From the NCBI RefSeq assembly GCF_013167455.1, contig NZ_CP038328.1: DNA of 64,000 nucleotides; one strand, 5' to 3'. Positions 61,681 to 64,000 of the stretch are shown here, one piece after another; position 1 is the stretch's first letter, and each line of letters starts with the position of its first letter. This stretch comes from Escherichia coli O157:H7 (GTDB lineage: Bacteria > Pseudomonadota > Gammaproteobacteria > Enterobacterales > Enterobacteriaceae). A program made the position numbers.

Positions 61681-64000
61681 CAATAAGATCCTCTTTAAAG
61701 GAAAATACTGAGACTGTAGAAATGAACAGTAAAGTTTGGGGGAGGCTGAAAAAGATAATCACTTTCTTTAAAAAGTGATTTATGTTTCTGTAAAAAGCCC
61801 GTAGGTATCAACTGCGGGCTAAATTTTCCCTTGATGCTGGTTTTGTCTTTTATCTAAAAAATGCCAGTCTTCACGTTGCTTGTTCCAGCATTAAAGATGT
61901 ATGTGCTGACTTTTTCGCCTTTGAAAGAAACTGTCAGAGATTTAGTTTGTGAGTCTGCGCCACCTGCAAGCAGTCCCACAACGGGGATGAAAGAGGTTGC
62001 TTTGGACTGGCTGTTATACATAGTGTATGACCATTGTTCTTCACCATCGATCAAAGAACGGCTGTCAGGTTCACCGAACGATGCTAACACGTCCTGTTTT
62101 GTAGTTTTGCCTTTAACAATTTTGGTTTTCACACTTTCCTGCGTCTCATTTTTCAATGACTGGTTGCCTACTGAAGAACAACCTGCCAAGGTCAGAAAAA
62201 CGAATCTATATGAGAGTTTTTTGTACCTGAGACTAAATCGCCCTCCCAATGCCCTAGAGAGCGTCTGTTATCGATATTTCGGGAACGTTCGTGAATTGGT
62301 GTTCCGTTCACTATGTTAATCGTACCTCTTTCGCCTTTGCGGGTATGACGCCTGCCATGGCGAAGGCTATGCGACCGTCGCAGATGCTGTATATTCAGGT
62401 GGTGTAGCGCTTCACGGCTACGAAAGTACAGCGTTTTATAAATTGTCTCAGGTGATATTCGCAGCGTTTTTTGACGTGGTTTTGTTCGCCTTAACCATCC
62501 TGATATTTGCTCTGGAGACCATTTCATCTCCAGCTTTTCCAGAACAAGCTTTCGCAATGGTAAATTTTGATCCAGTAAGCACGGTTTTGGCCTTTTCGCC
62601 ATTCTGTTGGCTCGGTTATTAGCATCAACAGCTTTGTAATAGCGTCTGCCCCGATTACGCTGAACTTCACGTGAGATCGTCGAAGGACTGCGATTCAGCG
62701 CAGTAGCTATCGCACGAATGCTCATTTTGGCTGACAAACCAGCTCGTATCTCCTCGCGCTCAGACAGTGTCAGGTGAGCTACAGCCCGCTTACGCTCATG
62801 GGGTTTTATGCCGCCAGTATCCCTTAACATAGTGAAGATCGTTCCGGGTTTTGAACCCAGGATATTCGCTATTTCACTGAAGCCTGTTCCGTTCTTCCAT
62901 AGTTCAAAAACAGAGGCTTTTTCCTCTGCTGTAAATGTTCGTCTCATTCAAAAAACCTCCGCAACCCCATGTTTTCACATAACTGTTGCGTTGACCAATT
63001 GAATCTACAGTGGTCTGTTTTAATATTTCTATTTCTATTTCTATTTCTATTTCTATTTCTATTTCTATTTCTATTTCTATTTCTATTTCTATTTGTTGTG
63101 ATTTTTTCTTTAGTTCATGTATTTCGATTTGTTTCTGAATTATCGGGGGTAGTGTCTTCCCTTTTCCCTGAGGCTTATCATGCAGTTATTTTCGCCATCT
63201 TGGTATTGTGGAAATACCGACATCCATAGCTTTGGTGAGCTCTGTTCAGGTGGCCAAATTCAGAAAACCATTACGGAGGAAGAAGGCGATGGCTAAACCA
63301 GCGCGAAGACGATGTAACCGTAAAAGAGAAGATTTAACTGTTAAAAGGATATTTGAGTTACTAAGTTTCGATAAATCTACCGGGGTATTTAGATGGAAAG
63401 TTCCCACTCAGGGAAGGATAGCATTAAATAGTGTTGCTGGAGCTTTTGATTCCAACGGTTATTCAATGATCATGATAGATGGGCGTAGATATAAAACTCA
63501 CGTCTTAGTTTTTTACATAACTCATAATCGTTGGCCTGCTGGTCAAATTGACCACGTTAATGGAATTAGGACCGACAATAGGCCAGAAAGTTTAAGAGAA
63601 TGCCTGCCAATAGAAAATTCAAGAAATATAAGGATCCGAAAGAATAGCAAATCAGGTTGCAGAGGGGTTACTTGGCACAAACGACAGAAAAAATGGAATG
63701 TTAGGCTAGGATTCCATGGCAAGAGTAAACACTTCGGATGCTTTGATGATCTGGAGTTAGCGGTACTAGTTGCTGAAGAAGCCCGAGATAAGTATTACGG
63801 TGATTTTTCCGGCAACGAAAGGAGCACTTATGCGAATCTATCGAAGGAAATGTAAATGTTGCAATGAATGGTTTATACCAAAATATCAAAATCAATATTG
63901 GTGTAATGAGATTTGTGGAACCAAGATAGCACTCGAACGACGAAGTAAAGAACGCGAAAAAGCGGAAAAGGCAGAAAAGGCAGCAGAGAAGAAACGACGA

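What the first reader, a model, noticed from the sequence alone, without database searches (positions are those of the whole stretch)
62192..63009. IS30 truncated internally and fused to the 5' end of a lipoprotein gene
IS30 identity runs from its left inverted repeat (63009) to ~62206 and then stops abruptly mid-transposase. The adjacent lipoprotein ORF has no native start: its only initiation codon is a TTG inside IS30-derived sequence. This indicates an IS30-mediated deletion that removed the IS right half and adjacent DNA.
Basis: partly seen in the sequence, partly recalled or inferred. Interest (0 to 1): 0.35.

Follow-up and report, generated by a model that had tools for sequence, protein, structure and literature searches.

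The report
Truncated IS30 deletion scar, O157:H7
This is an ordinary deletion scar fixed in typical E. coli O157:H7: the first two-thirds of an IS30 insertion sequence are joined directly to a small lipoprotein gene that has lost its first eight codons, after about 34 kb of prophage and genomic-island DNA between them was lost.

Summary
Window 63009→62206 (minus strand) is IS30 nt 1–804 of 1221, with one mismatch. At 62206 it joins a BamE-domain lipoprotein gene that lacks its first 22–23 nt.

The intact 124-aa gene (MKKIIIVGFVFLTLAGC…) exists in sorbitol-fermenting O157 493/89 and in O55:H7. There, the lipoprotein gene and the prophage NinG gene lie about 31 kb apart; adding the nin segment seen in LSU61 and UTME-10 gives a loss of about 34 kb.

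The IS30 originally sat in the prophage, not in the lipoprotein gene. Strain SMN197SH3 carries the complementary IS30 half at the same site and orientation, implying a GT target duplication.

The present joint is not a direct transposase product. It lies inside the IS and shares only 1 nt of homology.

A second allele in O157:H7 strains F3113 and PV15-279 (IS30 nt 1–52/55 joined 544 bp further into the island) cannot derive from this one, or the reverse. That implies an unsampled intermediate followed by independent small deletions. LSU61 has a unique 4-bp loss exactly at the insertion point, a possible excision footprint.

Verdict: real, already annotated as a pseudogene, and mechanistically ordinary. 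It has modest value as a lineage marker and as a natural record of IS30 erosion.

The parts
62207..63009 (-). IS30 remnant, nt 1–803 of 1221 (nt 804 is the shared G at 62206). It lacks nt 805–1221, including the right inverted repeat.
   Evidence: ungapped identity to K-12 IS30A with 1 mismatch (nt 755)..
62984..63009 (-). IS30 left terminal inverted repeat (26 bp by established knowledge). The terminal base at 63009 abuts phage DNA.
62192..62947 (-). Truncated IS30 transposase ORF of 251 aa (InsI residues 1–247 plus DSFF, stop TGA). The HTH DNA-binding region is kept; only 19 residues of the rve/DDE core remain.
   Evidence: PGAP marks it as a pseudogene missing its C-terminus.
62206..62206 (-). 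Deletion joint: a single G common to IS30 nt 804 and the native lipoprotein gene (L002:9427).
61854..62205 (-). Remnant of the BamE-domain lipoprotein gene. Residues 9–124 of the native 124-aa protein are intact. Codons 1–7, most of codon 8, the SD sequence and the upstream operon partner are gone.
61854..62249 (-). Chimeric ORF of 131 aa from TTG 62249 (MGGRFSLRYKKLSYR-FVFLTLAGC…). Its first 15 codons are IS30 sequence read out of the transposase frame. The SD-like AGGG lies only 2 nt from the TTG.
   Evidence: Annotated as 'lipoprotein' in Xuzhou21.
62178..62189 (-). Retained lipobox codons L-A-G-C.
   Evidence: Read from the sequence.
63010..63011 (.). GT: the right-hand copy of the inferred 2-bp IS30 target duplication.
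   Evidence: Empty site AATGTG-GT-GGTCTG in UTME-10. SMN197SH3 has …AATGTAGT directly next to the IS30 right end.
63024..63094 (.). (TATTTC)11.8 microsatellite of the phage nin region, immediately beside the IS30 insertion point. It is flanking DNA, not part of the IS.
63289..63855 (+). Phage HNH endonuclease gene, the first surviving gene of the decapitated lambdoid prophage. NinG, phosphatase, Q and lysis genes follow, beyond the window end.

Best explanation
The feature is a fixed deletion scar of typical E. coli O157:H7.

Shown:
- An IS30 copy was inserted, transposase pointing leftward, in the nin region of a lambdoid prophage, just left of a (TATTTC)n repeat and an HNH endonuclease gene.
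- That prophage lay next to an island near tRNA-Ile (ileY by recall). The island carries ypjA, three tandem recombinase genes, a two-gene unit (a 233-aa protein of unknown function plus the lipoprotein), a relaxase, ABC-three-component defence genes and Hxs genes.
- Everything from IS30 nt 805 to lipoprotein codon 8 is now missing.
- The reconstructed loss is about 34 kb. It comprises the IS30 right end, the phage NinE/methylase/NinB region, replication genes, immunity genes, recombination genes and int, and the right part of the island.
- The surviving joint lies inside IS30 and has 1 nt of homology. It was therefore made by illegitimate (microhomology-type) joining, not by transposase strand transfer.

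Inferred:
- The loss happened in at least two steps. A first event brought IS30 (at least nt 1–804, possibly the whole element, for example by an IS30 adjacent deletion) next to the island, at or beyond the middle of the 233-aa gene.
- Separate small deletions across that junction then produced this allele in typical O157:H7 and a different allele in the PV15-279/F3113 lineage.

Consequences (inferred):
- The IS30 is immobile, with no right end and no catalytic core.
- The prophage has lost int, immunity and replication functions.
- The island has lost its relaxase side.
- The lipoprotein gene has lost its promoter-proximal partner, SD sequence, ATG and half of its signal-peptide hydrophobic core, so it is most likely silent or non-exported.
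For: Anatomy of the joint:
- IS30 nt 1–804 at 99.9% identity, then an abrupt break.
- The native lipoprotein start, and overlap of its ATG with the stop of the upstream 233-aa gene, are seen in 493/89.
- The missing island and phage segment is present in 493/89 and O55:H7. The matching nin module with an empty site is present in LSU61 and UTME-10.

Original insertion site:
- SMN197SH3 has IS30 nt 381–1221 at the same phage site and orientation, with the complementary flank and the same nt-755 variant.

Deletion rather than inversion:
- In all 31 O157:H7-type genomes sampled, only the right flank of the site is matched, at a single place.
- One search returned no allele-A genome among those matching the island beyond the lipoprotein gene.

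Second, non-nested allele:
- F3113 and PV15-279 carry IS30 nt 1–52/55 joined through ACC to L002:9971, with an intact lipoprotein gene.
- PMC7175801 places PV15-279 with G5101 as a carrier of the pO157_2 plasmid variant. [quoted passage not shown]

Other support:
- No complete IS30 is found at this site in 5,426 genomes.
- At least 272 genomes carry this allele.
- Microhomology-bounded loss of IS30-family elements, sometimes leaving IS remnants, and its stimulation by the O157 IEE protein, are described in bioRxiv 10.1101/2023.06.07.543989.
Against: - The postulated intermediate (IS30 with at least nt 1–804 abutting the 233-aa gene) was not found in any genome.
- One nucleotide of homology at the joint is no more than chance, so it does not identify a repair pathway.
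- The two-step argument rests on the improbability of two independent ~34-kb deletions ending within 0.75 kb (IS30) and 0.54 kb (island) of each other. Selection or an unknown hotspot could produce the same clustering.
- No island sequence resembling the phage IS30 target was found (best 14/22, equal to shuffled controls).
- Expression of the chimeric ORF was not tested. Its charged N-terminus followed by FVFLTLAGC could still act as a short lipoprotein signal.
Confidence: 0.7

Rival explanations
1. The final joint, and those of the sister allele and LSU61, are products of transposase-dependent abortive excision of IS30. In this view, copy-out replication switches strand, or end-joining occurs at microhomologies, helped by the O157 IS-excision enhancer (IEE) PrimPol. 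This refines the best explanation rather than opposing it.
For: - Three O157-lineage events touch the same IS30 copy, each with a short homology. This allele has G. The PV15-279/F3113 allele has ACC.
- LSU61 has an empty site that uniquely lacks GGTC (1 of 245 genomes). This is explicable as loss of IS30 plus 6 bp (1227 bp) between two TGT triplets.
- The review read states that IEE stimulates excision of IS30-family elements, that deletions occur between 2–4-bp microhomologies and can intrude into the IS, and that Szabó et al. saw similar products with IS30.
Against: - Presence of IEE in the relevant ancestors was not checked.
- 1-nt and 3-nt homologies are weak.
- The deletion lengths for this allele cannot be computed without the intermediate.
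- The only other O157:H7 IS30 copy examined (EDL933) has an internal 43-bp gap over the start codon, so a source of active transposase is uncertain.
Confidence: 0.3
2. A single-step illegitimate deletion of about 34 kb, from inside IS30 to lipoprotein codon 8, occurred independently of a second single-step ~34-kb deletion in the PV15-279/F3113 lineage. No intermediate existed.
For: No intermediate was found. LSU61 shows that the full phage left flank still existed in an early O157:H7 branch. Loss of prophage early genes may be selected.
Against: Both endpoints of the two alleles fall within 750 bp (IS30) and 544 bp (island) of each other across a ~34-kb interval. My rough estimate of this happening by chance is of the order of 10^-3. 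No Chi sites are present that could focus RecBCD degradation.
Confidence: 0.2
3. One reading: IS30 transposase itself produced the present joint, as a classic IS-mediated adjacent deletion.
For: IS30 is known to mediate deletions (established knowledge). The right-hand junction at 63009 is exactly the IS end.
Against: The left joint is at internal nt 804, and the right inverted repeat and catalytic core are gone. Transposase-made deletions retain an intact IS end at the joint.
Confidence: 0.03
4. IS30 inserted into the lipoprotein gene, or the structure is an inversion breakpoint or an assembly artefact.
For: None beyond the adjacency itself.
Against: - The same phage site carries the complementary IS30 half in SMN197SH3.
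- The left flank and the 233-aa gene were not found elsewhere in the allele-A genomes sampled.
- At least 272 independent complete assemblies agree.
Confidence: 0.02

Closest known systems
IS30 of E. coli K-12 (IS30A, 1221 bp, InsI transposase of 383 aa)
   Same: 99.9% identical over nt 1–804, including the left inverted repeat, the transposase start and the HTH DNA-binding region. A 2-bp target duplication (GT) is inferred from the paired flanks.
   Different: It lacks nt 805–1221: no right inverted repeat, and only 19 of about 92 residues of the rve core. It is a dead remnant, not a mobile IS.
Microhomology-bounded loss of IS30-family elements (ISApl1 loss from Tn6330/mcr-1; IS30 excision events; IEE-stimulated excision in O157), as summarised in bioRxiv 10.1101/2023.06.07.543989
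   Same: The deletions span an IS end, have endpoints at short homologies, sometimes leave part of the IS, and occur in a lineage known to carry IEE.
   Different: Those events remove roughly one IS length. Here about 34 kb is missing overall, the homology is only 1 nt, and dependence on transposase or IEE is untested.
IS629/IS-associated small structural polymorphisms and degraded prophages of O157 (for example Sakai Sp17, described as severely degraded; PMC2669165)
   Same: A lambdoid prophage has lost int, immunity and replication genes and lies next to IS remnants. The feature works as a lineage marker.
   Different: The element involved is IS30, not IS629. Identification of this prophage as Sp17 rests on my recollection of map position and was not verified with tools.
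BamE/SmpA-OmlA domain lipoproteins (PF04355)
   Same: The retained mature part matches PF04355 above the gathering score (27.9 vs 23.2 bits). The lipobox LAGC is retained.
   Different: This is not the housekeeping BamE. It is a 124-aa island-borne paralogue found identically in Salmonella, E. coli and other enterobacteria. Here it lacks its start and half of its signal peptide.

Membership tests
IS30 (intact, mobile element) | Left terminal inverted repeat and 5' sequence identical to IS30 | tested here: met
   nt 1–804 with 1 mismatch against K-12 IS30A.
IS30 (intact, mobile element) | Right terminal inverted repeat present | tested here: not met
   Identity ends at nt 804. No IS30 3' sequence is adjacent.
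IS30 (intact, mobile element) | Full-length DDE transposase with the rve core | tested here: not met
   The 251-aa ORF has no rve hit. The full protein has rve at aa 229–320.
IS30 (intact, mobile element) | 2-bp target-site duplication | tested here: inconclusive
   Only one flank survives here. GT is inferred by combining the empty site (UTME-10) with the opposite flank in SMN197SH3.
Transposase-catalysed IS adjacent deletion | The deletion joint coincides with an intact IS end | tested here: not met
   The joint is at internal nt 804. Only the other side (63009) is an IS end.
Microhomology-mediated / IEE-type IS excision product | Short direct homology (typically 2–4 bp or more) at the joint | tested here: inconclusive
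   1 nt here; 3 nt (ACC) in the sister allele; 3 nt (TGT) in the putative LSU61 footprint.
Microhomology-mediated / IEE-type IS excision product | Dependence on active transposase and IEE | not testable with these tools
   This needs genetics. IEE presence in the ancestors was not examined.
Bacterial lipoprotein | Lipobox [LVI][ASTVI][GAS]C | tested here: met
   LAGC is encoded at 62178–62189.
Bacterial lipoprotein | Native start codon and a complete n- and h-region signal peptide | tested here: not met
   The native MKKIIIVG is replaced. Only FVFLTLAG remains of the h-region. The one upstream start is TTG in IS30 sequence with poor SD spacing.
BamE domain family (PF04355) | Pfam score above the gathering threshold | tested here: met
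   27.9 bits against a cut-off of 23.2.

The most novel reading that the evidence does not exclude
A single ancestral IS30 insertion in a prophage nin region has been eroded independently at least three to four times by short-homology deletions spanning its ends:
- typical O157:H7 (this window);
- the PV15-279/F3113 lineage;
- a near-precise excision footprint in LSU61;
- the opposite half lost in SMN197SH3.

This would be a natural, phylogenetically ordered record of abortive, possibly IEE-assisted, IS30 excision. The same process immobilised a prophage and a mobilisable island during the emergence of O157:H7.
Probability: 0.3. Interest if true: 0.4.

Novelty: already known. Interest (0 to 1): 0.2.

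Why it matters
The practical value is small. The joint is a clean, PCR-typable marker that separates typical O157:H7 (IS30 nt 804 joined to lipoprotein codon 8) from three other groups: the PV15-279/F3113 lineage, LSU61, and sorbitol-fermenting O157/O55:H7.

It also explains why the neighbouring prophage has no integrase, immunity or replication genes, and why the adjacent island lacks its relaxase side.

It exposes an annotation problem. PGAP calls this lipoprotein as a 100-aa protein from an internal TTG even in genomes where the 124-aa form with signal peptide and lipobox is intact.

For IS biology, the set of independent erosions of one IS30 copy could serve as natural test material for models of microhomology-mediated IS loss.

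Tried and rejected
- Complete IS30 at this phage site. A synthetic query (full IS30 plus 700 bp of right flank) found no genome covering 80% or more among 5,426.
- RecBCD/Chi focusing of the deletion endpoints. There are no Chi sites in either orientation in the 18-kb island locus or in IS30. Rejected.
- An IS30 target-like sequence in the island that could mark where an intact IS30 once abutted it. The best match to the 22-bp phage target was 14/22, the same as shuffled sequence. An AATGTG hexamer at L002:10029 is not significant. Rejected as evidence.
- Inversion or translocation instead of deletion. In the allele-A genomes sampled, the left flank of the site and the 233-aa gene were not found. 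Rejected.
- A consensus σ70 promoter for the chimeric ORF. None was found in 61700–63250, against 2.6 expected in shuffles. This is uninformative, because the scan also fails to pick up IS30's own promoter.
- NCBIfam naming of the lipoprotein and of the 233-aa partner. Only sub-threshold hits (TrsH, LytA), or none.
- Literature search for a description of this joint or for IS30 domain boundaries. Nothing specific was found. IS30's N-terminal binding to its inverted repeats is cited from my own knowledge only.
- Other IS30 copies in O157:H7 as a source of transposase. The one examined (EDL933, near tRNA-Leu) has a 43-bp internal gap over the start region. Inconclusive.

Full report
**Source of the window**

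The window is E. coli O157:H7 chromosome. Window 61700–63300 is 100% identical to many O157:H7 genomes, for example strain 86-24. The rest of the window aligns at 99.9% or better to 86-24.

The gene order runs srl–recA–…–gab–tRNA-Ile. It then enters an island carrying ypjCB, ypjA/ehaD, a DUF6387 gene, an HTH gene, three tandem recombinase genes, several genes of unknown function and a small lipoprotein gene. After that come an IS30 fragment and the late half of a lambdoid prophage: HNH endonuclease, NinG, phosphatase, Q and lysis genes.

**Check of the observation**

An ungapped comparison with K-12 IS30A (1221 bp) shows that IS30 nt 1–804 equals window 63009→62206 on the minus strand. There is one synonymous mismatch at nt 755 (window 62255). 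From nt 805 onward the sequences are unrelated.

The truncated transposase ORF (62192–62947) encodes InsI residues 1–247 followed by DSFF and a stop. Pfam finds the HTH domains but no rve core, whereas the full protein has rve at aa 229–320. PGAP annotates this ORF as an IS30 pseudogene missing its C-terminus.

The adjacent ORF (61854–62249, minus strand) matches the BamE domain above Pfam's threshold and keeps a lipobox, LAGC.

**The intact gene and the joint**

Sorbitol-fermenting O157 strain 493/89, O55:H7 strains and a few other E. coli carry the uninterrupted gene. It encodes 124 aa, MKKIIIVGFVFLTLAGCSS…, with an AAGGA Shine-Dalgarno sequence. Its ATG overlaps the stop codon of an upstream 233-aa gene of unknown function.

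A three-way alignment places the joint at the G of codon 8. This G is also IS30 nt 804. The window gene has therefore lost 22–23 nt of coding sequence, its ribosome-binding site and its operon partner.

In the lipoprotein frame, the only start upstream of the lipobox is TTG 62249, in IS30 sequence read out of frame. An AGGG lies only 2 nt before it. In-frame TTGs at 62189 and 62156 lie at or after the lipobox. PGAP uses 62156, giving 100 aa. It does so even in genomes where the 124-aa form is intact, which looks like a start-site mis-call.

All three versions are in the public protein collection: the 124-aa native form, the 131-aa chimeric form and the 100-aa form. The chimeric one is annotated simply as 'lipoprotein' in strain Xuzhou21.

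**Where the IS30 originally sat**

The IS30 left end abuts phage DNA at 63009/63010. Genomes with the same nin module and no IS (for example UTME-10, and about 245 genomes in total) read …GGAATGTG-GT-GGTCTGTTTTAATA(TTTCTA)n… across the site.

Strain SMN197SH3 carries IS30 in the same orientation at the same position, but it keeps the other side. The left flank …GGAATGTAGT is followed directly by the IS30 right end, with IS30 nt 381–1221 present. It has the same nt-755 A variant, and the IS is then joined to a phage J-gene fragment.

Taken together, the two half-sites imply one insertion position with a GT target duplication. The IS30 was therefore a prophage insertion, not an insertion into the lipoprotein gene.

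**What was lost**

In 493/89, the DNA between the lipoprotein start and the prophage NinG gene contains:
- the 233-aa gene, a relaxase (a pseudogene there; intact in O155:H21), and ABC-three-component defence genes;
- an integrase fragment, the hxsDBCA cluster, and further integrases;
- the prophage int, exo/bet/gam, kil, cIII, repressor, cro, cII, O, P, ren and nin genes.

LSU61 carries the same HNH-type nin module as O157:H7. The methylase, NinE and a 590-aa gene lie to the left of an empty site.

Combining 493/89 with the LSU61 and UTME-10 distances gives about 33.8 kb of lost DNA, plus 417 bp of IS30. This reconstruction is an estimate. In the O157:H7-type genomes sampled, the left flank of the site was not matched anywhere. 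Among genomes matching the island beyond the lipoprotein gene, none was allele-A. This is therefore a deletion, not an inversion.

**A second allele**

O157:H7 strains F3113 and PV15-279 keep only IS30 nt 1–52/55. This is joined through an ACC triplet to the middle of the 233-aa gene (L002:9971), and the lipoprotein gene is intact.

This allele has less IS30 but 544 bp more island than the window allele. Neither can be derived from the other by deletion.

The literature sets these two strains apart. PV15-279 carries the pO157_2 plasmid variant found in GUD+ strain G5101 (PMC7175801). The pO157 plasmids of PV15-279 and F3113 stand apart from the rest of the tree (PMC10758439).

The common ancestor must have had at least IS30 nt 1–804 and the island up to at least L002:9971. 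Two independent 34-kb deletions ending within 0.75 kb and 0.54 kb of each other seem unlikely. I therefore infer an intermediate in which IS30, possibly intact, already lay beside the 233-aa gene. This is what an IS30 adjacent deletion, or recombination between two IS30 copies, would produce. Separate small deletions across that junction would then have followed. No such intermediate is present in 5,426 complete genomes.

**LSU61**

The empty site in LSU61 reads AATGTGGT-TGTTTT, so it lacks GGTC exactly at the insertion point. Of 245 genomes holding this site, only LSU61 has this form.

It can be written as loss of IS30 plus 6 bp (1227 bp) between two TGT triplets. This fits the near-IS-length, microhomology-bounded losses described for IS30-family elements and for IEE-assisted excision in O157 (bioRxiv 10.1101/2023.06.07.543989). 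It is suggestive only. A coincidental indel cannot be excluded.

**Mechanism**

Shown:
- The final joint is internal to the IS and has 1 nt of homology.
- It is therefore not a transposase strand-transfer product.

Inferred:
- The loss was multi-step.
- IS30 may have been involved in the first step.
- Transposase- or IEE-associated abortive excision may have been involved in the later steps.

Ideas tested and dropped:
- Chi-focused RecBCD degradation: no Chi sites.
- A target-like site in the island: no better than shuffles.

**Consequences**

The IS30 remnant cannot move. Its 251-aa product keeps the DNA-binding N-terminus. From my own knowledge, not tested here, that region binds IS30 ends and might act as an inhibitor.

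The prophage is left without integration, immunity and replication functions. This agrees with published descriptions of severely degraded O157 prophages (PMC2669165). Equating it with Sakai Sp17 is my recollection, not a tool result.

The lipoprotein gene is probably silent or not exported. The chimeric N-terminus is positively charged and followed by FVFLTLAGC, so a weak residual signal cannot be excluded.

**Verdict**

The finding is real and precisely located. The feature is an ordinary, already annotated IS and deletion scar. Its interest lies in its use as a lineage marker, and in the unexpected set of independent erosions of one IS30 copy.

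Noticed in passing
window 50327–54397 (junction at 54291): There is a 1,922-bp deletion relative to strain 86-24. It removes about 250 C-terminal residues of the autotransporter YpjA/EhaD (presumably its β-barrel) and the first 745 nt of the DUF6387 gene, fusing the two in frame into a 1356-aa ORF. The joint has 1 nt of homology and no IS. Only 4 of 5,426 complete genomes share it (ECP19-598, 17B6-2, G5295, FRIK1989), so it points to the window's source clade.
   Followed up: partly
window 55020–59174: Three tandem, overlapping genes. Two are tyrosine recombinases (PF00589). The third is a 543-aa protein with no Pfam hit but an HQLRH…Y-like motif. Together they form a recombinase trio that may be the mobility module of the island.
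   Followed up: partly
window 61499–61682, within ORF 60480–61778: A perfect (GCCAGA)30.7 microsatellite encodes a long (PE)n tract in a 432-aa protein of unknown function. The ORF length differs between strains: 432 aa here, 430 in 86-24, 428 in F3113, 404 in 493/89 and 402 in PV15-279. It looks like a hypervariable VNTR locus.
   Followed up: partly
window 63024–63094: A perfect (TATTTC)11.8 microsatellite lies directly beside the IS30 insertion point in the phage nin region. Its copy number varies among O157:H7 genomes and other STEC prophages.
   Followed up: partly
window 61854–62156, and L002:9075–9449: PGAP annotates the BamE-like lipoprotein as 100 aa starting at an internal TTG, even in genomes where the 124-aa ATG form with SD sequence, signal peptide and lipobox is intact (493/89, F3113, PV15-279). 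This is a likely systematic start-site mis-annotation.
   Followed up: yes
L013 (LSU61, NZ_CP038336) about 29590; L013 3442–5366 and 25488–26838: LSU61 has the IS30 site empty but lacks 4 bp (GGTC), uniquely among 245 genomes. Separately, LSU61 has lost the island segment from ypjA' to hxsB'. It also carries the prophage early region inverted next to an IS3-family element that splits the phage methylase gene.
   Followed up: partly
L014 (SMN197SH3, NZ_CP024056) 5306–6146: IS30 nt 381–1221 sits at the same phage site and orientation as in O157:H7. Here the left part of the IS and the phage genes from HNH to J are deleted instead, a mirror-image truncation of the same insertion.
   Followed up: partly
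L010 (EDL933, NZ_CP124740) 1717–2888: Another O157:H7 IS30 copy, next to a P2-like prophage remnant near tRNA-Leu, has a 43-bp internal gap (nt 58–100) covering the canonical transposase start. PGAP nevertheless annotates it as an intact 377-aa transposase.
   Followed up: no
window about 4087–5607 (srlE, srlA; positions converted from the 86-24 annotation): srlA and srlE are annotated as frameshifted in the near-identical DNA of 86-24 (99.99% over this stretch), consistent with the sorbitol-negative phenotype of typical O157:H7.
   Followed up: no
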